This document shows positions 1 through 42,719 of a DNA stretch of 42,719 nucleotides, piece after piece (position 1 is the stretch's first letter; every line of letters begins with the position of its first letter). Source of the stretch: an uncultured Gammaproteobacteria bacterium (GTDB taxonomy: Bacteria; Patescibacteriota; Patescibacteriia; 2-01-FULL-39-33). The notes beneath the pieces were generated by a model. That model saw only the letters and a program-made list of their open reading frames with translations, was not told where the DNA came from and did no database searches. The translations under genes and the position numbers were made by a program. The stretch spans positions 1 through 42,719 of the forward strand of contig CAYLUK010000002.1 of the NCBI GenBank assembly GCA_964386875.1, written 5' to 3'.

Positions 1-881
1 TCAGACATTAAACCGACAAAAACAGAATCAGCGCTATAATACACAGACAAAGCCGTGCTAATGTTTGTTGGATAAGCCAACACCGGCTTAATCTTACGCT
101 CCAACAAGTTGGCTAAATTGTCGCAATATTCAATATTGGTCGGATCAATCATCGCCACCACTAATTCTCCTGACTTCTTTTCCCTGATTGGTATCACTCG
201 ATATAAAATGGCAATCTGGGGCTTAATTAATTTAATAATTTTGTCCGAGACTGACATTAACACGTCAGTGGAAACAATCTCAAGACCAAGCTGGACAGCC
301 AAGGTTTCGGTGATGTGAAATTCTAAAATATATCCCCATTTCAACATTATCTCTCCTAAACGATGATGAGGAAAAAATATTTCTTTCTGATATTCAAGTG
401 CACAGTCACGCTGTTTAACGCTTATAATATCTTTAACAACCAATATTTCGCCAAATAGCATACTGGCCGGCTGGTCAGGGATTAAATTGAGTTTTTCCGC
501 TTCTTGAATTTCCATAGCTATTTTGATGTCATTTTCTGAAGCTAAACGCATCTTTATCAAAACAACGCCAATCATTTCATTTGTCAACCGTTGCCTTCGG
601 ATAGCTTCATCAAGCTCTAATGAAGTAATTTTGCCTTGAGCCACAAGAATTTGACCAAGTAATAAATTTGTTTCATTATCTGACAAAAGCTTTGATATAT
701 TTGGAAAAAGCTTTTTGTCAGCGTTGTCAAAAGCAAGCCAAAGAACATCATGCATTTTGTGACACCGATCATCTTCATGGATGTTAAAATTCTCTTTCCA
801 TGATCTGACCGCCTCAAATAATTGTTTATAAACTTTCAATTCAAAAAATATTTGTTGTAGTTGAACTTTTGTCATACCCAT
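1..881 (-). CDS. PilB/GspE-family secretion or pilus ATPase, N-terminal region only. The 3' end of the gene lies left of the window.
   Basis: This edge-truncated frame is absent from the ORF track. Hand translation from the ATG at 881-879 (GGAG 7 nt upstream) reads MGMTKVQLQQIFFELK... with no stop down to position 1. It contains repeated T2SSE_N/MshEN-like modules: LLGQILVAQGKITSLELDEAIRRQR, RLGEIMLKWGYI and IAILYRVIPIREKKSGELVVAMIDPTNIEYCDNL. Confidence 0.6.
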   Translation of the reverse strand, partial: MGMTKVQLQQIFFELKVYKQLFEAVRSWKENFNIHEDDRCHKMHDVLWLAFDNADKKLFPNISKLLSDNETNLLLGQILVAQGKITSLELDEAIRRQRLTNEMIGVVLIKMRLASENDIKIAMEIQEAEKLNLIPDQPASMLFGEILVVKDIISVKQRDCALEYQKEIFFPHHRLGEIMLKWGYILEFHITETLAVQLGLEIVSTDVLMSVSDKIIKLIKPQIAILYRVIPIREKKSGELVVAMIDPTNIEYCDNLANLLERKIKPVLAYPTNISTALSVYYSADSVFVGLMS

Positions 882-4176: not shown

Positions 4177-5325
4177 TTATAATTTTCCAACTTTAATTTG
4201 TTGTCTAATTCTAGACATTAATGTTAAATAAAACTCCAAATTATTTAAAGTCGCCAGTCGCATGGCTAAGGGTTCTTTGGTTTTAAACAGATGATGTAAA
4301 TATGCCTTGGAATATTGTTTTAGATTAGTATTATTGATTGGTGATTGATCATTTTTAAACTTGGCATTAGTAATGTTCATTGTTTTATATGTCATCCCGA
4401 GAGAGCGGAGCGACCGTGGGGATCCAGTTGTATTACCACGGGATTGCTTCATCACCTTAATACTCCCTCGCAATGACGTTATTACATACAACCTCCCATG
4501 TCTCGCTTCCCGAGTCGGAATGACACAATCAAACATATCCCCCCCCCGTTTAACCGCCTCAAATATATTATCCGGCGTACCCACGCCCATTAAATATCGA
4601 GGTTTATTCTCCGGCATTATTGGCGTCAAATAATCCAAAACTCGATACATATCTTGATTGCTCTCTCCTACAGCTAAACCGCCGATCGCATAACCGTCAA
4701 AATTCAAATCAACTAACTCACCCAAACTTTTCAACCGCAAATCTTTGTATATCCCACCCTGAATAATCGCAAACAATAACTGTTTTGTGTTGTGCGTTTT
4801 TCGTTTTGCGTCGTACGCCTGCCTCGCCCACTTAGTAGTAATCTCCACGGCTTCAGCCACTTTCTGCTTGCTGTCTTTTGAACCGGGACAAACATCCAAA
4901 ACCAGTGCAATATCCGAACCGATAATTTGCTGAATCTCCAACACTTTTTTGGGCGTCAATAAATGCCGACTACCGTCAAGATGGGATTTAAATTCAACGC
5001 CACTAGGCAATATCTTTCTAATTTTAGATAATGAAAAGACTTGAAAGCCGCCACTGTCAGTCAAGATTGGCCCATCCCAATCCATCAACTTATGCAGACC
5101 ACCGGCCTTTTTCATCACCTTCATCCCTGGCTGAAGATATAGATGATATGTGTTTGACAAAATGATTTGCGCTCCCAAAGCCCGCATTTCATCAGTAGTC
5201 AAATTTTTCACTGCCGCTTTGGTCGCAATCGGCATAAAAAACGGCGTCTGAATCTGACCGTGAACCGTCTTTAATGTTCCCAGTCGAGCCTGGGATATTT
5301 TTGATTTTCTTAATAATTTATACAT
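4177..5325 (-). CDS. tgt: Queuine tRNA-ribosyltransferase carrying an in-frame repeat insertion and lacking the zinc-binding Cys cluster
   Basis: Motifs are TPFFMPIATKAAVK, ILTDSGGFQVFSL, YAIGGLAVGE, YLMGVGTPDNI, DCVIPTR and YSKAYLHHL. Length is 382 aa. Confidence 0.85.
   Translation of the reverse strand: MYKLLRKSKISQARLGTLKTVHGQIQTPFFMPIATKAAVKNLTTDEMRALGAQIILSNTYHLYLQPGMKVMKKAGGLHKLMDWDGPILTDSGGFQVFSLSKIRKILPSGVEFKSHLDGSRHLLTPKKVLEIQQIIGSDIALVLDVCPGSKDSKQKVAEAVEITTKWARQAYDAKRKTHNTKQLLFAIIQGGIYKDLRLKSLGELVDLNFDGYAIGGLAVGESNQDMYRVLDYLTPIMPENKPRYLMGVGTPDNIFEAVKRGGDMFDCVIPTREARHGRLYVITSLRGSIKVMKQSRGNTTGSPRSLRSLGMTYKTMNITNAKFKNDQSPINNTNLKQYSKAYLHHLFKTKEPLAMRLATLNNLEFYLTLMSRIRQQIKVGKL
4391..4477. 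repeat. Palindromic GTCAT...ATGAC element, copy 1 (87 nt, in-frame inside tgt)
   Basis: Termini are GTCATCCCGAG and CTCGCAATGAC, and the core is GGGGATCC-N-CCACGGGATTGC. It is related to the copies at 34742-34838 and 42094-42168. It translates as SLRGSIKVMKQSRGNTTGSPRSLRSLGMT. Confidence 0.8.
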
Positions 5326-5334
5326 AGGGTTTAT

Positions 5335-8088
5335 TTAAAACTCATCCAAAGGTAGTCCTGTCTCAAAGGTCATATTAGGATTAACACCGGTGATGACAGA
5401 TATGTTTTTAAATTGATTTTTACTAAAGATTTCATTAGTGACTAATCTTTTCTGGCCGATATCAATATACCAAATATTCTCTGATCCACTATATTGAATT
5501 AAGGAACCATCAGGGTAATGACTAGACACGTCACAAGTGGTATTTCTAGTGTAATCACTTTCAAATCCTGGTTGGATTACTAGAGCTGAATTAATCCAGT
5601 CATTATTATAAAGCGAATATTGCCGACACAGCTGATCACCGTCGCCAATCGCATAGATAACATTACTATTTTTAAACCTAATTAATTTTGACCCCGGCCG
5701 AACAGTGACATTCTGACCAATGCCATATGCATCAAACTCATCTCTGGTGATAACTTCTAGATCAATATCTGACCAACTGCCAGTATACCAAGTCCAGAAA
5801 GTAGCGGCATTGGAAAATAATCGCCTTTTGCCGTCTGAAGCAATATGATAAATGGCTGTGCTATCTGATAATTTGACTAAACGACCGCGATGAAAAGATT
5901 TTCTGATATTGCTGGTAGTCTGGCTATTTGTGGACGAGTCATTATTATTATTGGTGGAATTATCAGTGTCTCCGCCACTATTATTATTAATATATGTACA
6001 TGTCCTGTTTTCATCCGGCTGACCACTAGATATGCCACAAGCATTAACATCAGTACATGTCCTGACTTCAGAACCTCCTAAATTGCAAGCCGACCAAACA
6101 CCACAAGACCAATTCGGCGTACAACTAGTTGTACAACCTTGACTTTCAGTTGGTCTATTAATGGTCGTCCCGCAGTTATTTAAATCATTGCAATTTCTAG
6201 TTTGAATATTATTATTGCAAACACTCCAAGCGCCGCAAGACCAATTTTCTCCACAACTCATAACCGTAATAGTGTATGTCTCTTGTTTAGTTGATTCTTG
6301 ATTACCAGCGCTGTCACGAGAATAAAAACGCAACACACTTGACTCGCTGATAGATATAGCTGAAGCATACAATGTCGTCGGATTGCAATCTGAACCAAAA
6401 CAATAATAAGTCAAACCAGATTCGTTTATAGATAGGGTGACGGGTTGCGACGATTGATAACTACCTCCACTGGGAGACACCACGGTTATTGGCGGTGTCG
6501 TGTCAACCGGTGTTTCTGATGAATTTAATCGAGTCTGATAAGCGAGAAATTTTTGGGTGTTCATCTGATCTTGATATTCAAACATACCCCAATATTTCTC
6601 ATTATTGGTGTAGGGAGAAGAATAAGTAAAACCAATAAATAATTTTCCTGGATTTAATTCATCCCACTTGGCAAACATATCATTATAAAAAATCTGCATC
6701 CGAGGATCGTTTTGGGCATTGTAAAAAACACTGGCGATAGCAGAGCTACGACCGCTGGCATCCAACCCTTGTCCGCCTTCATAAGCGACCAGATCAATGC
6801 CATATTGATTGGTAAAAACTAAATTATTTATAACTTCCTGGCGAAAGCATTTGCTACTATCAGTGCAATTCAACCAATGATTTAATCGATTAAAAACAGC
6901 ATCAACCGTCGCCGGCTGTGATCCACTGGCCATTTCATTATCAATTTCTCCGCCGACATAAGGCGCGATGGCAAAAACCTCCGGCAGTGTTGCTGAAGGA
7001 TTGTAAGTTGAAACTAGAGAATATTCCAAGAGCCGTTCAGCCCAACTTGAATTGGCCGCCTGACCGGACAAAACATTAACAACTCTGTCGTCTCCCAATT
7101 CCTGTTCAAAAATCTGCCAAATTTCAGAGCTTCTAAATACCTGATATTTCTGAGTCGCCGCTGTGTTGTTGGTGTCAAATCCTTTTTGCAACCCCTGATC
7201 TCGACAATAGCCAAAGGCTGAAAAACCTGAATTCCAAATTTCATTGGAATATTCAACATAAACTTTTAGTCCAACATTAAGATTTTGTTTTATGAGCTGG
7301 GCATAGCCTCTGACATAAGAATCCGGTGCATTTTCCGGGATGGATATATAACAATCGGAATTTATCCGATTGCATAATTCAATGACATATTCCGGAGCAA
7401 TACCCCAATCACCGGTTTGATTATATGTTTGAGTGGTAGTTCTCTCACTCCAATTCAAATTACTGGCTGATTCGTTAATTTTCTGCCAATTACCAAATCT
7501 AATCACATCAAATCCCGCCCAGCCACGGAGATATTCTGGATGAAAAATTTGGGTTTGGTAGCTGTTGACAAATCCAGGCATAATTAGCCGAATATTTCTC
7601 ACATGATCAGCACTATCTGATCTGGTAATTTTAAGTACGCCGTCTGATTGACTGCTACTTATTGGCACAATACAAGAATTATCCAAGCCATTGTTAGAAT
7701 CGCAAGTGACACCCAAAAATGTGACTGTGCCATCACCGTCAAATATTAATGTGTAATCCCCAACCGGCCAATGTTCCCAACTATGATCAAAATCAGAAGC
7801 AACACTGTTAACTCCGGCTTGAGGTACCTGCGTTGGATAGCCATTGCTATCGGCGGTAAAAGTAGCTGAAGAGCTGTTGTTGGCAGTCCGAAACTTGCCA
7901 CTAAGTTTCATTACATCCACAAAAATCCACTGATTCCAATAATGGTTAATTTTTCCAACATTCATTCCAGTTGAATTTCCAGCTGATGCTGTCACCCCAC
8001 TTGATGACAAAAATAAACCTGCCACAAGAATTGTTGCAACAATTAATAATAAAAAAATAACTCCCCAAAAATTAAAAAAATTTTTCAT
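5335..8088 (-). CDS. Secreted or anchored multidomain protein: clan GH-A-like glycoside-hydrolase-like domain, two six-Cys modules, a low-complexity N/S/T linker and C-terminal beta-rich repeats
   Basis: There is an N-terminal signal/anchor, FWGVIFLLLIVATILVAGLFL. YVEYSNEIWN and VAYEGGQGL resemble the acid/base and nucleophile strands of (beta/alpha)8 hydrolases. The duplicated Cys modules are CGENWSCGAWSVCNNNIQTRNCNDLNNCG and CTPNWSCGVWSACNLGGSEVRTCTDVNACG (about nt 5998-6255). The function is not established. Confidence 0.6.
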   Translation of the reverse strand: MKNFFNFWGVIFLLLIVATILVAGLFLSSSGVTASAGNSTGMNVGKINHYWNQWIFVDVMKLSGKFRTANNSSSATFTADSNGYPTQVPQAGVNSVASDFDHSWEHWPVGDYTLIFDGDGTVTFLGVTCDSNNGLDNSCIVPISSSQSDGVLKITRSDSADHVRNIRLIMPGFVNSYQTQIFHPEYLRGWAGFDVIRFGNWQKINESASNLNWSERTTTQTYNQTGDWGIAPEYVIELCNRINSDCYISIPENAPDSYVRGYAQLIKQNLNVGLKVYVEYSNEIWNSGFSAFGYCRDQGLQKGFDTNNTAATQKYQVFRSSEIWQIFEQELGDDRVVNVLSGQAANSSWAERLLEYSLVSTYNPSATLPEVFAIAPYVGGEIDNEMASGSQPATVDAVFNRLNHWLNCTDSSKCFRQEVINNLVFTNQYGIDLVAYEGGQGLDASGRSSAIASVFYNAQNDPRMQIFYNDMFAKWDELNPGKLFIGFTYSSPYTNNEKYWGMFEYQDQMNTQKFLAYQTRLNSSETPVDTTPPITVVSPSGGSYQSSQPVTLSINESGLTYYCFGSDCNPTTLYASAISISESSVLRFYSRDSAGNQESTKQETYTITVMSCGENWSCGAWSVCNNNIQTRNCNDLNNCGTTINRPTESQGCTTSCTPNWSCGVWSACNLGGSEVRTCTDVNACGISSGQPDENRTCTYINNNSGGDTDNSTNNNNDSSTNSQTTSNIRKSFHRGRLVKLSDSTAIYHIASDGKRRLFSNAATFWTWYTGSWSDIDLEVITRDEFDAYGIGQNVTVRPGSKLIRFKNSNVIYAIGDGDQLCRQYSLYNNDWINSALVIQPGFESDYTRNTTCDVSSHYPDGSLIQYSGSENIWYIDIGQKRLVTNEIFSKNQFKNISVITGVNPNMTFETGLPLDEF

Positions 8089-18996: not shown

Positions 18997-19458
18997 TGTC
19001 CATGCAAATTGGATGATCGCCCAGCCCCAGTTTAAAAAACTGAAGCGGGGAGGAAAGTCCGAACACCTCTTGATGCAAATCAAGGTCGCGGTAATGGGTA
19101 ACACCCATCCTTTGGCTGGCGACAGTCAAAGAGGACCAGTTCCACAGAGACTATACTATCCAACTCCGGTTTTATTATTAAAGTATTCAATTAAAAACTT
19201 TAATAATAAAACCGGAGTTGGAGAAAGGTGAAAAGTGTTATAGTGTTTTAGAGTGAGCACGGGATATCCCCTCAAACTAAAGCTATATGACTCGGCCTCT
19301 GGCAACAGAGTGTTTGTGGTAAACTCTACCTGGTGCAATCCCAAAAACAGTGGGGAGCATGAGCTAGTCAGTAATGACTGGCCTAGATAGATGATCATCG
19401 TTTTATCTTGAGTCTTCAAGATAAAATACAGAATTCGGCTTATAGATTTGCTTGGACA
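18997..19458 (+). ncRNA. rnpB: RNase P RNA, bacterial type A
   Basis: The universally conserved GAGGAAAGTCCGAACAC lies at about 19049-19065. Other matches are ACAGAGA..., AGGTGAAAAGTG and GGCCTAGATAGATGATCATCG...ACAGAATTCGGCTTATAG, all paralleling E. coli M1 RNA. P1 pairs TGTCCATGCAAAT (18997-19009) with ATTTGCTTGGACA (19446-19458). Confidence 0.9.
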
Positions 19459-22636: not shown

Positions 22637-22643
22637 AATGAAA

Positions 22644-22677
22644 GAACGACGGGATCCCTCGTTGCACTCGGGATGAC
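22644..22677. repeat. Solo half-copy of the GTCAT...ATGAC palindromic element
   Basis: The minus strand reads GTCATCCCGAGTGCAACGAGGGATCCCGTCGTTC. This shares the GTCATCCCGAG terminus and the GGATCCCGT core with copies 1 and 2. Confidence 0.55.
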
Positions 22678-29869: not shown

Positions 29870-29915
29870 GTCATTGTAATTTCACTCCGCTATAGGCGAG
29901 TGGACGAAGCAATCT
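29870..29915. repeat. Possible degenerate remnant of the palindromic element family
   Basis: GTCATTG...GCGAGTGGACGAAGCAATCTC resembles the GTCATTGCGAGTGG...GGCAATCCCG start of copy 3. No second terminus is present. Confidence 0.3.
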
Positions 29916-29985
29916 CTGGTTATTGGTAATAAATCTTAATTTATAATGTTTGAAAAATTAACAACTGCCACCTCTCTCTTAAAGC

Positions 29986-34165: not shown

Positions 34166-34202
34166 GTAAAAAACCACTTCAGCGCGAAGTGGTTTTCTTT
34201 TT
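34166..34202. terminator. Bidirectional intrinsic terminator
   Basis: The stem pairs AACCACTTC (34172-34180) with GAAGTGGTT (34186-34194). It has an A-run on the left and a T-run on the right. It serves the small plus-strand ORFs and the minus-strand truB-tsaC ORF. Confidence 0.7.
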
Positions 34203-35496
34203 ATTTTAATTTTATTGCTCCTTGCCTTAATACAGTAACACTGCCATTGTCCACTTTGATTAAAGTGGATGGTTCGGCCGTGATCTCGCCTGCGTCAACA
34301 TAGAAATCAACCAGGTCGCCAAAATATTCTTTCGCTTCACTGGCAGTCTTAGCCGACTCTTGTCCTTCGGGATTGGCGCTAGGCGCTACCAATGGGCCAG
34401 TTTGTGCTAATATGTCAATCAACTCTGACTTATCTGGCAGACGAAATGCCAACGAGTTTGTGCCACGATGCAAATACGCAAATTTTTCATTGTCGCACGG
34501 CAAAATTATGCTCACCGGTCCCGGCCAAAAATCTTTCAAATTATCTACCGGACTAATCCCAAATAATTTCAAATCATCAATTGAGCTGACTAAAATAATA
34601 AACGGCTTATCCGGCTGTCTGGTTTTGACTTGATAAATCCTCTCCACCACATTTTGGTTTAAGGCCAGGCCAACCAAGCCATAGACGGTGTCGGTTGGAA
34701 GGATACCAATGCCACCTGATTTTAAAATATTAACCACACTTGTCATCCCGAGGGAGTGTAGCGGAGCGGAACGACCGTGGGGATCCCGTTGTATTGCCAC
34801 GGGATTGCCACGTCGGCCTTCAGCCTCCTCGCAATGACACTTGCTCAATATATTTCTCTCTACACAATCTTCAATTCTGAACTCACCCACTCTTATCCGT
34901 TCCAAATCCGCCAAATACCCACCCACGCCCAAAACCACGCCAAGGTCGCGTGCCAAAGACCGAATATACACGCCCTTGCCAGTGATCACCCTTAATTTTA
35001 AGTCTGGATATTTATAATCTAAAATTTCAATTTCTTTTATTTCCACTTTTCTGGGCTTCAGCTCGACCACCTCGCCTTTTCTGGCTGATTTATATGCCCG
35101 CCGACCATTAACTTTTATGGCGCTGTATACCGGTGGCGCCTGCTCTATTTCCCCAACAAACTTTTTCAAAACCTCTTTAATATCTTCTTCTTTAATTTCT
35201 GATTTTTTTAATTTCTTAATTTCTTGTTTGCTCCCCTCCTCATCATCAGTGGTGCTAGTCAAACCCAGACGAATGTCGGCAATATATTCTTTTTCTTGGC
35301 CCACAATTTCTGACAACTGCTTGGTGGCCTCTCGGCCCACAGCAATTACCAACACCCCCGAAGCCAATGGGTCAAGCGTGCCGGCATGACCGACTTTTTT
35401 TACACCGGTAATTTTGCGCACTTGCGCTACTACATCAAAAGAGGTCGGCCCCTTGAGTTTATAAATGGCAAAGATGGTTTTATTATATAAATTCAT
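34201..35496 (-). CDS. truB: Fused ORF: tRNA pseudouridine-55 synthase TruB (N-terminal) joined through a repeat-element-encoded linker to an L-threonylcarbamoyladenylate synthase TsaC/YrdC domain (C-terminal)
   Basis: The TruB part has KGPTSFDVV, VGHAGTLDPLASGVLVIAVG, PPVYSAIKVNGRRAY and GVYIRSLARDLG. The linker is CHCEEAEGRRGNPVAIQRDPHGRSAPLHSLGMT. The TsaC part has GGIGILPTDTVYGLVG, KPFIILV, WPGPVSIIL and LVAPSANPEGQ. I prefer the start at MNLYNK (35496). Confidence 0.8.
   Translation of the reverse strand: MNLYNKTIFAIYKLKGPTSFDVVAQVRKITGVKKVGHAGTLDPLASGVLVIAVGREATKQLSEIVGQEKEYIADIRLGLTSTTDDEEGSKQEIKKLKKSEIKEEDIKEVLKKFVGEIEQAPPVYSAIKVNGRRAYKSARKGEVVELKPRKVEIKEIEILDYKYPDLKLRVITGKGVYIRSLARDLGVVLGVGGYLADLERIRVGEFRIEDCVERNILSKCHCEEAEGRRGNPVAIQRDPHGRSAPLHSLGMTSVVNILKSGGIGILPTDTVYGLVGLALNQNVVERIYQVKTRQPDKPFIILVSSIDDLKLFGISPVDNLKDFWPGPVSIILPCDNEKFAYLHRGTNSLAFRLPDKSELIDILAQTGPLVAPSANPEGQESAKTASEAKEYFGDLVDFYVDAGEITAEPSTLIKVDNGSVTVLRQGAIKLK
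34742..34838. mobile_element. Palindromic GTCAT...ATGAC element, copy 2 (97 nt), flanked by an ACTT direct duplication
   Basis: The sequence is GTCATCCCGAGGGAG...CGACCGTGGGGATCCCG-TTGTATTGCCA-CGGGATTGCCACGTCGG...CTCCTCGCAATGAC, a nearly continuous hairpin. ACTT occurs at 34738-34741 and 34839-34842. Confidence 0.8.
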
Positions 35497-35633
35497 TATT
35501 TTTAAATAAACGGCAAATAAAATAATATTTCTTAACAATTAATACCCCCAATATTAGTCGGGGGTATTAATTAGTATCGTCTGATAATTAAATCCAATTA
35601 ACACTCGGGTTATCGTCTTTTTTCCTCAAACCA

Positions 35634-41598: not shown

Positions 41599-42719
41599 TT
41601 AATTGGTGTCATTCGCATCGGTTAAATCAAGAAAATCCTCAATCTCTTTACTGATCGTCTCTGGTGTAATGCCATGTTGCTGATTGTACTTTTTCTGAAT
41701 GAGACGCCGACTTTCCACTTCTTTAAGCGCTCGTTTCATTGACCCGGTCACAGTATCGGCGTACAAAATGACCTTACCGGTCACATTCCTAGCAGCTCGT
41801 CCCATAGTCTGCATCAGTGATGTTTCACTGCGCAAAAATCCTTCTCGATCAGCATCCAAGATGGCGACCAGTGTCACTTCCGGCAAATCCAAACCCTCAC
41901 GAAGCAAATTCACTCCAATTAGAATATCAAACTTACCCTTTCTAAAATTCTTTAAGATATCAGTCCGCTCAATCGTCTTAATATCGCTATGGATATAATT
42001 TACTTTAAGTCCTTGCTTTTTCAAATATTCATCAAGATCTTCAGCCATTTTCTTGGTCAAAGTATTGACAATGATACGACCAGTTTTCTTACTGTCATTG
42101 CGAGTGGCCGGAAGGAGGGTGGCAATCCCGTTTAATTCCACGGGATCTATCGCTCTGCTCGAAATGACACTTTTAATTTCCTTAATTAAATCATCAATTT
42201 GGCTCTGGTCAGTCTTCTTATTATATACCGGCCTAATCTCGACTGGTGGATCAATCAGCCCGGTGGGTCGAATAACCTGACGAATGGGTCGGCCAGACTT
42301 TTCAATTTCCCACTTGCCGGGTGTGGCTGTCGTAAATAGAGTTTGGCCGATTCGCTGTTCAAATTCCTTGAAATTCAACGGCCGATTATCTAGCGCTGAC
42401 GGCAGACGCCAGCCATATTGGATTAAGGTTTCTTTTCTCGCTTTGTCACCGGCATACATTCCTCTGATTTGAGGCACGGCAATATGCGACTCATCAATAA
42501 TGGTCAAAAAATCTGGACTGCCATCTGCGTAACGCGGAAAATATGCCAACAGCGTATCGGGCGACTCACCCGGCAATTTGCCGGTCAAATGACGAGAATA
42601 ATTTTCAATGCCATGGCAATAGCCAAGGGAAAGCAACATCTCCATATCGTATCGTGTCCGACGCTCAAGTCGCTCGGCCTCAAGAAAAAGACCCTTATCC
42701 TTATAATATTTCAGCCTAT
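41599..42719 (-). CDS. uvrB: Excinuclease ABC subunit B, C-terminal about 370 aa. The 5' end lies right of the window. It carries an in-frame repeat insertion.
   Basis: Motifs are [41 protein letters not shown] and the helicase C region [46 protein letters not shown]. The frame stays open upstream of the track start ([28 protein letters not shown]). Confidence 0.9.
42094..42168. mobile_element. Palindromic GTCAT...ATGAC element, copy 3 (75 nt, opposite orientation), flanked by an ACT direct duplication
   Basis: The sequence is GTCATTGCGAGTGG...GGCAATCCCG-TTTAATTCCA-CGGGATC...GCTCGAAATGAC. ACT occurs at 42091-42093 and 42169-42171. It encodes [25 protein letters not shown] between two Ser (AGT) codons. 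Confidence 0.8.

What the first reader, a model, noticed from the sequence alone, without database searches (positions are those of the whole stretch)
34738..34842. A palindromic element insertion appears to have welded truB and tsaC into one reading frame
**Element:** The 97-nt hairpin element at 34742-34838 is flanked by a direct ACTT at 34738-34741 and 34839-34842.

**Reconstruction:** Deleting the element plus one ACTT in silico gives the gene-sense sequence ...TTG AGC AAG TGT GGT TAA. TruB would then end ...ILSKCG-stop. A GTG GTT AAT ATT... start (MVNILKSGGIGILPTDTVYGL) for the TsaC/YrdC domain would sit in the +1 frame, overlapping that stop. Such overlaps are the typical tight junction style of this genome.

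**Frame arithmetic:** The insertion adds 101 nt (2 mod 3). That is exactly what converts the +1 offset into one continuous frame. The element has no stop codon in that frame and supplies the 33-residue linker CHCEEAEGRRGNPVAIQRDPHGRSAPLHSLGMT. Its terminal ...GGGATGAC also provides an in-frame ATG just before the TsaC domain.

This looks like a gene fusion created by a non-autonomous repeat.
Basis: partly seen in the sequence, partly recalled or inferred. Interest (0 to 1): 0.72.

Follow-up and report, generated by a model that had tools for sequence, protein, structure and literature searches.

The report
Hairpin repeat forms TruB–TsaC linker
A small selfish hairpin repeat sits exactly between the TruB and TsaC halves of one tRNA-modification gene in a Patescibacteria genome and is translated as a floppy 33-residue linker; relatives carry the same two-enzyme fusion without the repeat, so the repeat did not invent the fusion, though it may have re-joined the halves in this lineage.

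Summary
A 97-nt imperfect palindrome (34742-34838) with ACTT on both sides lies inside one 431/445-aa ORF that carries TruB and TsaC domains. It is identical in several other assemblies, so it is not an artefact.

It belongs to a large family found in several phyla: termini GTCATTGCGAG...CTCGCAATGAC, more than 120 metagenome contigs, and copies in Planctomycetota and Methylosinus. The window holds two more full copies, both in frame inside tgt and uvrB. This resembles the Rickettsia palindromic elements.

The 'welding' claim is only partly supported.
- At least 24 related Patescibacteria proteins (53-63% identical) are TruB-TsaC fusions without the element, so the architecture does not depend on it.
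- The ACTT 'target duplication' is not a family feature: 76 of 92 copies have no flanking repeat.
- Core length is not diagnostic of frame, because 3n+1 cores occur inside single-domain genes.

Three results keep welding alive.
- The closest lineage (97% bootstrap) has separate truB and tsaC overlapping by ATGA.
- Excising the core leaves an immediate stop plus a GTG start, a 3-7% coincidence by chance.
- The element-free linker is 27 residues, against 31-32 in fused relatives.

My estimate: welding about 0.5, insertion into an existing fusion about 0.4. No empty-site allele was found.

The parts
34742..34838 (.). Copy B of the palindromic element, 97-nt core. In gene sense it reads GTCATTGCGAGGAGGC...CTCCCTCGGGATGAC. 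It is a decayed hairpin.
   Evidence: nhmmer E = 1e-12. Identical in L040.
34741..34839 (-). The 99 nt (33 codons) translated as the linker CHCEEAEGRRGNPVAIQRDPHGRSAPLHSLGMT. This is the core plus the flanking T and A that usually extend the palindrome in this family.
   Evidence: 29-residue gap against fused relatives; pLDDT below 50 for residues 222-248 of the 431-aa protein, coil.
34738..34741 (.). Left ACTT of the flanking direct repeat. Probably a chance match, not a target-site duplication.
34839..34842 (.). Right ACTT of the flanking direct repeat.
34840..35496 (-). TruB module: tRNA pseudouridine-55 synthase, residues 1-219 from the ATG (MNLYNK...).
   Evidence: (TIGR00431, 220.7 bits).
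34201..34740 (-). TsaC/YrdC module (L-threonylcarbamoyladenylate synthase), SVVNILKSGG... through the stop codon.
   Evidence: (TIGR00057, 147.1 bits).
34735..34737 (-). GTG that would be the TsaC start if the genes were once separate. It is now read as Val.
34744..34746 (-). ATG carried by the element, in frame with TsaC. It has no Shine-Dalgarno-like sequence upstream.
   Evidence: reading of the sequence.
4391..4477 (.). Copy A, 87-nt core, in frame inside tgt (ORF 4177..5325, minus strand). It adds about 30 residues between Z. mobilis Tgt residues 294 and 300.
42094..42168 (.). Copy C, 75-nt core, in the opposite orientation, in frame inside uvrB (41599 to the window end, minus strand). 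It adds 24 residues relative to a 68%-identical UvrB.
22643..22677 (.). Partial copy D (one terminus, ...GGGATCCCTCGTTGCACTCGGGATGAC). It is intergenic and is followed by a terminator-like hairpin.
   Evidence: E = 0.22, weak.
29870..29917 (.). Half copy E (GTCATTGTAA...GACGAAGCAATCTC), intergenic.
   Evidence: (E = 0.12, weak).

Best explanation
Shown: copy B is an old, decayed member of a widespread, non-coding, hairpin-forming repeat family found in several phyla. It is inserted at the exact point where the truB stop and tsaC start lie in the closest relatives. The ribosome reads through it, and it becomes a 33-residue disordered linker between a complete TruB and a complete TsaC.

Shown: the TruB-TsaC bifunctional architecture is typical of this Patescibacteria clade and exists without the element.

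Inferred history for this lineage: just before the insertion the two modules were separately translated and out of frame. truB ended ...NILSK(CG)-TAA and tsaC started at the adjacent GTG, as in the sister lineage, whose genes overlap by ATGA. The 97-101-nt insertion had no stop in the relevant frame and shifted the frame by the needed amount, so it (re)joined them into one ORF. On this reading the element re-welded a gene pair that other members of the clade fused by ordinary deletion.

Inferred: the fusion works because the junction is a solvent-exposed inter-domain linker, just as copies A and C sit in loops of Tgt and UvrB.
For: Element and family.
- Sequence, hairpin and other copies.
- Read-through ORF with both domains.
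- Disordered linker.
- Fixed in at least 5 assemblies.

Sister lineage.
- Its genes are separate and overlap by ATGA. In L045, truB is 342-1118 and tsaC is 1115-1693. L044 is the same.
- The window groups with it at 83.5% (TruB domain), 48% (TsaC domain) and 97% (concatenated) NJ bootstrap.

Excision.
- Removing the core (97 nt) or the core plus ACTT (101 nt) leaves a TAA within 0-2 codons and a GTG at the TsaC frame start.
- In this window's genes a random out-of-frame junction does that only 3-7% of the time.

Lengths.
- The element-free distance from RVGEF to PTDT is 27 residues. It is 31-32 in 24 of 25 fused relatives, so the window is not simply 'canonical fusion plus insert'.
- A 13-15-residue TruB tail is normal for free-standing TruBs, which range from 8 to 39.
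- Copies A and C show no comparable loss of target sequence.
Against: - At least 24 fused relatives without the element are about as similar to the window (TruB part 58-67%) as the split pair is (65%).
- The window/split-pair trio nests among fused lineages. Fused proteins form a group that excludes the trio in only 4% of replicates. The trio's ancestor was therefore probably fused.
- The trio itself could be long-branch attraction, since NJ was the only method available.
- Removing 99 nt (the family's usual T-core-A unit) gives a perfect in-frame fusion.
- 3n+1 cores lie inside continuous Pth, WecG and epimerase genes, so core length says nothing about an earlier frame offset.
- A GTG-started TsaC would have the shortest N-terminal head seen: 13 residues before PTDT, against 15 or more in free-standing TsaCs.
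- No Shine-Dalgarno sequence precedes the GTG.
- An HMM of the fused relatives scores all reconstructions equally, at 621.0-621.7 bits.
- No empty-site allele was found.
Confidence: 0.5

Rival explanations
1. The element inserted into a pre-existing fusion. The window's ancestor already had one continuous truB-tsaC ORF, like at least 24 relatives. The element, as a 99-nt T-core-A unit or as a net 3n replacement of about 15 nt of linker, landed in the tolerant inter-domain linker. It survived because it was in frame and free of stops, exactly like copies A and C in tgt and uvrB. The stop and start seen after excising the core are then coincidence.
For: - Fused relatives without the element.
- The trio nests among fused groups.
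- Synteny uvrB-uvrA-uvrC-...-truB/tsaC is shared with the fused P0003 locus.
- The flanking T and A are the family norm and covary: the two flanking positions are complementary in 58 of 91 copies.
- In-gene copies with 3n+1 cores occur in single-domain genes.
- The tail RIEDC... matches KIEDC... of fused P0014.
- This needs only one event in this lineage.
Against: - It needs an extra loss of 4-5 codons at exactly the insertion site, from a linker whose length is otherwise nearly invariant.
- It needs a 3-7% coincidence for the stop and start.
- The closest lineage is split.
Confidence: 0.4
2. The ORF is not really one protein. The hairpin or the element-borne ATG/GTG makes the cell produce separate TruB (with an element-encoded tail) and TsaC. 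On this view the 'fusion' exists only on paper.
For: - An in-frame ATG (34744-34746) and a GTG (34735-34737) lie just before the TsaC module.
- The sister lineage translates the two genes separately.
Against: - There is no stop anywhere in the frame.
- No Shine-Dalgarno-like sequence precedes either candidate start.
- The hairpin is weak (z = -2.5).
- Relatives make a single fused protein.
- The two 'unfused' database proteins (P0125, P0126) proved to be chimeric assemblies.
Confidence: 0.05
3. The element was put at this site by an assembly or sequencing error.
For: Repeats and hairpins do break assemblies. In sample ERZ5996431 both contigs that reach this junction are chimeras.
Against: - The element and its flanks are identical in an independent assembly of a 99.6%-identical strain.
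- They also appear in JGI, Logan and NCBI assemblies.
Confidence: 0.01

Closest known systems
Rickettsia palindromic elements (RPE; Ogata et al. 2000, Science 290:347, as summarised in PMC10969869)
   Same: - Short palindromic selfish repeats present in many copies.
- Inserted in frame into unrelated housekeeping genes and translated as extra peptide segments at positions the fold tolerates.
- No stop in the frames used.
- Found in small, reduced genomes.
   Different: - No sequence relationship. No RPE model hit in NCBIfam and different termini.
- Shorter: 68-132 nt, against about 100-150 nt.
- Not confined to one genus. It occurs in Patescibacteria, Planctomycetota, Alphaproteobacteria and viral contigs.
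- Here one copy sits at a domain boundary, not within a domain.
Bacterial MITEs that give in-frame fusions (Correia/NEMIS, ERIC, BOX, Nezha; review PMC10969869)
   Same: - Non-autonomous and about 100 nt long.
- Terminal inverted repeats and a hairpin-forming transcript.
- Occasionally lie within genes with open frames.
   Different: - No target-site duplication in 76 of 92 copies.
- No parent IS with the same ends was found. The window has no transposase.
REP/REPIN elements mobilised by RAYT (Y1/HUH) transposases, and IS200/IS605-derived palindromic elements
   Same: - Hairpins without target duplication.
- Two inverted half-sites forming one long stem.
- Arms that covary between copies.
- Half copies exist.
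   Different: - Termini are GTCAT, not GTAG.
- Many copies are intragenic.
- No RAYT or Y1_Tnp gene is linked to any copy examined.
- No conserved 4-5-nt target next to the element.
TruB-TsaC bifunctional proteins of Patescibacteria (for example P0016 'Candidatus Falkowbacteria', P0021/P0023 'Candidatus Buchananbacteria')
   Same: - Same domain order and the same domain boundaries.
- 53-63% identity overall.
- Shared synteny with the uvrABC genes in at least one relative.
   Different: - They have a 31-32-residue RVGxF-to-PTDT linker and no element.
- The window has 27 residues plus the 33-residue element peptide.

Membership tests
Rickettsia palindromic elements (RPE) | Sequence homology to the RPE-1..10 consensus or the RPE peptide models | tested here: not met
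   NCBIfam scan of the three host proteins gave no RPE model. The termini are unrelated. Rfam gave no hit.
Rickettsia palindromic elements (RPE) | Palindromic repeat inserted in frame in protein-coding genes and translated | tested here: met
   Copies A, B and C lie in frame in tgt, truB-tsaC and uvrB. Family copies lie in Lgt, Pth, WecG, an epimerase, LeuRS and a portal protein. Translation itself is inferred, not shown.
MITE (miniature inverted-repeat transposable element) | Terminal inverted repeats, small size, no ORF, many copies | tested here: met
   The 11-nt termini pair in 91 of 92 copies. Sizes are 68-132 nt. More than 120 contigs carry the element.
MITE (miniature inverted-repeat transposable element) | Target-site duplication of fixed length | tested here: not met
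   76 of 92 copies have none. Repeats of 3 nt or more occur in 5 rows, which is 4 independent copies because L040 is the same locus as window copy B. The shifted control gives 1.
MITE (miniature inverted-repeat transposable element) | A related autonomous IS with the same ends | not tested
   There is none in the window and none in L051. No systematic search was possible.
REP/REPIN-RAYT | Conserved 5' GTAG, extragenic location, linked RAYT gene flanked by REPs | tested here: not met
   The termini are GTCAT. 3 of 3 full copies in the window are intragenic. No Y1_Tnp gene is in the window. The Y1_Tnp gene in L177 has no element nearby.
IS200/IS605-type palindromic element | Insertion 3' of a conserved tetra- or pentanucleotide, without duplication | tested here: inconclusive
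   No duplication: met. Only position -1 (T or C, 85/91) and +1 (A or G, 82/91) are biased, and they covary as a base pair.
TruB-TsaC fusion proteins of Patescibacteria | One ORF with TruB_N/TruB_C_2 followed by Sua5_yciO_yrdC | tested here: met
TruB-TsaC fusion proteins of Patescibacteria | Descent from the same fusion event (canonical 31-32-residue junction) | tested here: inconclusive
   The window has 27 residues without the element. Its nearest lineage is split. Deeper nodes are unresolved.

The most novel reading that the evidence does not exclude
A selfish hairpin repeat, by landing in the stop/start overlap of two adjacent genes, converted them in one step into a single bifunctional tRNA-modification enzyme and donated the linker. 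This would be a caught-in-the-act case of a repeat-mediated gene fusion. The repeat belongs to a seemingly undescribed family, found in several phyla, that colonises essential genes of ultra-small Patescibacteria much as RPEs do in Rickettsia.
Probability: 0.45. Interest if true: 0.6.

Novelty: new member of a known kind. Interest (0 to 1): 0.45.

Why it matters
In-frame colonisation of housekeeping genes by palindromic repeats is textbook only for Rickettsia. Here the same behaviour appears in a Patescibacteria (CPR) genome. All three full copies in 42.7 kb lie inside tgt, uvrB and truB-tsaC.

The repeat family spans several phyla. I found no match in Rfam and none in the searchable literature.

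If the insertion did re-join truB and tsaC, it would be a concrete mechanism by which selfish DNA makes multi-domain proteins. If it did not, it still shows that inter-domain linkers and surface loops of essential enzymes are safe landing sites.

There are two practical consequences. These elements inflate and distort protein annotation, through odd insertions and spurious small ORFs. They also cause chimeric metagenome assemblies, and two such chimeras were found here.

Tried and rejected
1. 'Unfused alleles'. The 90% cluster of the protein holds a 267-aa TruB+element (P0126) and a 186-aa TsaC with a different N-terminus (P0125), both from sample ERZ5996431. They looked like evidence for a recent rearrangement at the element. 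Both are inter-genome assembly chimeras.
   - L172 switches, inside the 22-nt shared element terminus, to a 51%-GC mraZ locus of another organism.
   - L171 switches, inside a shared 18-mer of tsaC, to the vanZ-tsaE-tsaC locus of the GCA_001776545.1 lineage.

2. Alternative frame upstream of the element. The frame that reads ...EKYIEQVS resembled TsaC N-termini and fused linkers, which suggested a compensated frameshift. It was rejected as uninformative.
   - The HMM of fused relatives scores all reconstructions within 0.7 bit of each other.
   - A gapless DNA comparison with the sister junction shows no preferred excision length.

3. 'Trimmed tail' argument for a pre-existing fusion. Dropped, because free-standing TruB tails range from 8 to 39 residues.

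4. The '3n rule' using GTCAT...ATGAC boundaries. It fails, because bona fide single genes carry 3n+1 cores.

5. Rfam at gathering and at E-value thresholds: nothing.

6. Literature searches for the DNA termini, for the typical peptides, for MITEs in Patescibacteria and for TruB-TsaC fusion: nothing relevant.

7. Search for a mobilising gene.
   - The window has no transposase.
   - L051, with five copies, carries a DGR-type RT and bAvd, probably by coincidence.

8. The phage collection: no match.

9. The window's own genome is not among the GTDB species representatives.
Full report
1. THE OBSERVATION

The window carries GTCATCCCGAG...CTCGCAATGAC at 34742-34838 (97 nt), with ACTT on each side at 34738-41 and 34839-42. 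In gene sense (minus strand) the flanking repeat is really CAAGTGT, because it overlaps the element's own ends.

The element lies inside the minus-strand ORF 34201..35538. That ORF is 445 aa from the furthest TTG and 431 aa from the ATG that other annotations use. Pfam finds TruB_N, TruB_C_2 and Sua5_yciO_yrdC. NCBIfam finds TruB (residues 7-215) and L-threonylcarbamoyladenylate synthase (251-429) in the 431-aa protein.

The hairpin is imperfect. As DNA it folds at -24.8 kcal/mol with z = -2.5.

Deleting 101 nt gives ...NILSKCG-TAA overlapping GTG GTT AAT....

The element is not an assembly error.
- A second assembly of a 99.6%-identical strain has the identical 97 nt and flanks.
- The same fused protein occurs in JGI, Logan and NCBI assemblies.

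2. THE ELEMENT BELONGS TO A FAMILY

The terminal motifs recur in the window far above chance: 4 matches each, against 0.39 and 0.19 expected. The copies in the window are these.
- Copy A (4391-4477, 87 nt) lies in frame inside tgt.
- Copy C (42094-42168, 75 nt, opposite orientation) lies in frame inside uvrB.
- Partial copies lie at 22643-22677 and 29870-29917.

Copy A adds about 30 residues between Z. mobilis Tgt residues 294 and 300. I take this to be a beta-turn from my knowledge of the Tgt structure; I did not check it. Copy C adds 24 residues relative to a 68%-identical UvrB.

Five viral contigs also match.

The copies are 68-132 nt. They share the outer stem GTCATTGCGAG/CTCGCAATGAC and the inner stem CGAAGCAATC/GATTGCTTCG, with variable but mutually complementary arms between them. 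Their median folding z-score is -6.6. The window's three copies score only -2.0 to -2.7, so they are old and decayed.

Near-identical arms occur in Planctomycetota genomes (L036, L038). They also occur on plasmids of Methylosinus trichosporium OB3b and Methylocystis rosea, where the copy is intergenic between convergent genes.

The family is therefore spread across phyla. Neither Rfam nor full-text searches for its termini or typical peptides returned anything relevant.

Family copies sit in frame inside genuine single-domain genes elsewhere: Lgt, Pth, WecG, an NAD-epimerase, LeuRS and an SPP1-type portal protein. The behaviour matches that described for Rickettsia palindromic elements (PMC10969869, citing Ogata et al. 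2000). The sequence is unrelated, and no RPE model hits.

3. IS ACTT A TARGET DUPLICATION, AND DOES LENGTH PREDICT FRAME?

In 92 copies, 76 have no flanking direct repeat. Repeats of 3 nt or more occur in 5 rows. That is 4 independent copies, because L040 is the same locus as window copy B. A shifted control gives 1.

What is conserved is a single extra base pair. The base before GTCAT is T in 66 and C in 19 of 91 copies. The base after ATGAC is A in 55 and G in 27. The two are complementary in 58 of 91 copies. The independent frequencies predict about 46 (my calculation from the counts). Beyond that position there is no target motif.

With T required on one side and A on the other, an A..T tetramer match such as ACTT is expected about once in a set of this size (my estimate).

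The inserted block can therefore be read in three ways.
- 97 nt (core only): removal leaves ...NILSK-TAA, then GT, then GTG.
- 99 nt (T + core + A, 33 codons): removal leaves a perfect in-frame ...NILSK|SVVNILKSGG.

Core length modulo 3 does not settle the choice. Among copies inside verified continuous genes, five cores are 3n (window A and C, L055, L085, L143) and three are 3n+1 (L062, L064, L081). Window copy B is also 3n+1. None is 3n+2. The frame arithmetic therefore cannot be used as evidence on its own.

4. DO RELATIVES ALREADY CARRY THE FUSION?

Yes. The best non-self hits, P0002-P0024 and P0027, are TruB-TsaC fusions of 385-409 aa at 53-63% identity. Where named, the sources call them Falkowbacteria, Buchananbacteria or Patescibacteria. 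In the alignment only the window and its 99%-identical twin have the insertion, as a 29-column gap in all the others.

The P0003 locus also shares the uvrB-uvrA-uvrC...truB/tsaC neighbourhood with the window.

The element did not create this architecture.

5. THE CLOSEST LINEAGE IS SPLIT

NJ trees place the window with P0030/P0031. Support is 83.5% bootstrap for the TruB domain, 48% for the TsaC domain and 97% for the two concatenated.

On their contigs truB and tsaC are adjacent but separate, overlapping by ATGA. TruB ends ...LVDLWQKNKNI*. TsaC starts MKNIFSQNIVDILQSGG, and in L045 MKNIFFQQVVNILKSGG.

The trio appears among the fused groups.
- It joins group B in 44% of replicates.
- It joins group A in 15%.
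- The fused proteins form a group that excludes the trio in only 4%.

Unfused TruBs further out are not next to tsaC at all. Adjacency is therefore a trait of this clade. The split state of P0030/P0031 is either a secondary fission or a relic. Deeper nodes are unresolved. Only distance methods were available, so long-branch attraction between the window and P0030/P0031 cannot be excluded.

6. WEIGHING THE TWO HISTORIES

For a split state just before the insertion (welding):
- The sister lineage is split.
- Excising the core leaves a stop within 0-2 codons and a GTG at the start of the TsaC frame. Random out-of-frame junctions in this window's genes do that only 3-7% of the time.
- The distance from RVGxF to PTDT is 31-32 residues in 24 of 25 fused relatives but 27 in the window without the element. 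The window is therefore not 'canonical fusion plus insert'.
- Copies A and C show no comparable target loss.
- A 13-15-residue TruB tail is normal for free-standing TruBs.

For insertion into an existing fusion:
- Fused relatives are abundant and about as similar as the split pair. The best TruB match, at 67%, is the fused P0002.
- The trio nests among fused lineages.
- The 99-nt unit is the family-typical unit and is exactly 33 codons.
- 3n+1 cores occur in single-domain genes.
- A GTG-started TsaC would have the shortest head seen, and no Shine-Dalgarno sequence precedes the GTG.

Tests that could not discriminate:
- An HMM of the fused relatives scores every reconstruction at 621.0-621.7 bits.
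- A gapless DNA comparison with the sister junction prefers no excision length.

No empty-site allele exists in the protein collection. It would have ranked near the top.

I put welding at about 0.5 and insertion into an existing fusion at about 0.4.

7. A FALSE LEAD

The protein's 90% cluster contains a 267-aa 'TruB+element' protein and a 186-aa 'TsaC', both from sample ERZ5996431. These suggested an unfused strain. Both contigs are chimeras.
- L172 is 100% identical to the window up to the last base of the element. It then continues into a 51%-GC mraZ locus. In two other assemblies that locus has its own promoter region and a partial element copy in the same place.
- L171 is 97.3% identical to the vanZ-tsaE-tsaC locus of GCA_001776545.1 up to an 18-nt stretch it shares with the window's tsaC. 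After that it is 99.985% identical to the window.

They say nothing about alleles. They do show that the element breaks assemblies.

8. HOW IT WORKS NOW

AlphaFold2, run with the 25-sequence alignment, folds both modules confidently (most 10-residue blocks score 76-97). Residues 222-248 fall below pLDDT 50 and are coil. That stretch lies within the element peptide, residues 220-252. The pTM of 0.54 fits two domains on a flexible tether.

The insert is therefore most simply a passive, tolerated linker. How the family moves is unknown. The hairpin termini, the lack of a target duplication and the existence of half copies point to a single-strand, HUH-type or REPIN-like mechanism. No linked transposase was found.

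9. VERDICT

The element supplies the linker and may have re-joined two frames in this lineage. However, the fusion architecture predates the element and is independent of it, and the target-duplication and frame-arithmetic arguments do not hold by themselves.

Novelty: a new member of a known kind. It is an RPE-like, coding-compatible palindromic repeat from a family that appears undescribed and spans several phyla. Interest is moderate, at 0.45.

Noticed in passing
window 4391-4477 (tgt) and 42094-42168 (uvrB): Two more full copies of the same palindromic element lie in frame inside essential genes, in different frames and orientations. All three full copies in the 42.7-kb window are intragenic.
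   Followed up: yes
window 22643-22677 and 29870-29917: Partial (half) copies of the element lie in intergenic DNA. The first is directly followed by a G+C-rich hairpin and a T-run, like a terminator downstream of lepA.
   Followed up: partly
L171 and L172 (ENA ERZ5996431, NODE_3087 and NODE_1225): Both contigs that reach the truB-tsaC junction in this low-coverage assembly are inter-genome chimeras, joined at 18-22-nt shared stretches. One of those stretches is the element terminus. The resulting proteins (P0125, P0126) sit in public clusters as if they were real.
   Followed up: yes
L174 392-412 and L175 70-90: Another Patescibacteria organism has a partial element copy (..CTACACCCCCTCGGGATGAC) 25 nt upstream of the mraZ start, just after the run of GTGG repeats that looks like the MraZ operator.
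   Followed up: partly
L125 7961-8066: A 106-nt family copy links a complete ketopantoate reductase (ApbA + ApbA_C) to a C-terminal cysteine-rich region of about 190 residues, in one open frame. This is a second possible case of an element at a domain boundary.
   Followed up: no
L143 3905-4006; viral contigs L046-L050: Family copies also occur in phage-like DNA, including one in frame inside an SPP1-type portal protein. This suggests a possible route for spread between phyla.
   Followed up: partly
L051 (5 element matches; RT 4259-5494, bAvd 5758-6132): Five copies cluster around a diversity-generating-retroelement-like pair, a reverse transcriptase and a bAvd accessory protein. The association is probably coincidental and was not tested.
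   Followed up: no
one search hit list (P0026, P0041, P0053, P0061, P0063, P0075, P0085, P0096): In Patescibacteria, TruB and TsaC are each fused to many other partners. The list includes a TsaC-TruB fusion in reverse order, TruB-NUDIX, TruB-tRNA_bind, TruB-glycosyltransferase, and TsaC joined to UDG, DedA, HhH-GPD or a purine DNA glycosylase. Domain fusion of small RNA and DNA-repair enzymes looks rampant in this group.
   Followed up: no
P0064 (Candidatus Falkowbacteria TsaC, 271 aa): This TsaC carries a G+C-rich-looking insertion of about 80 residues (..LPLPSRSRAELNARTCSHSS...GQERAERELMN..) in the middle of the domain. It could be another translated repeat of a different family.
   Followed up: no
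window 19001-19458 (+): Bacterial RNase P RNA class A (Rfam RF00010, 163 bits). It is one of the few plus-strand features in a window whose genes are almost all on the minus strand.
   Followed up: no
L181 3001-3080 (Methylosinus trichosporium OB3b plasmid pOB3b1): A 72-nt family copy sits unannotated between two convergent genes in a cultured alphaproteobacterium. That organism could be used to test the element's mobility or function experimentally.
   Followed up: partly
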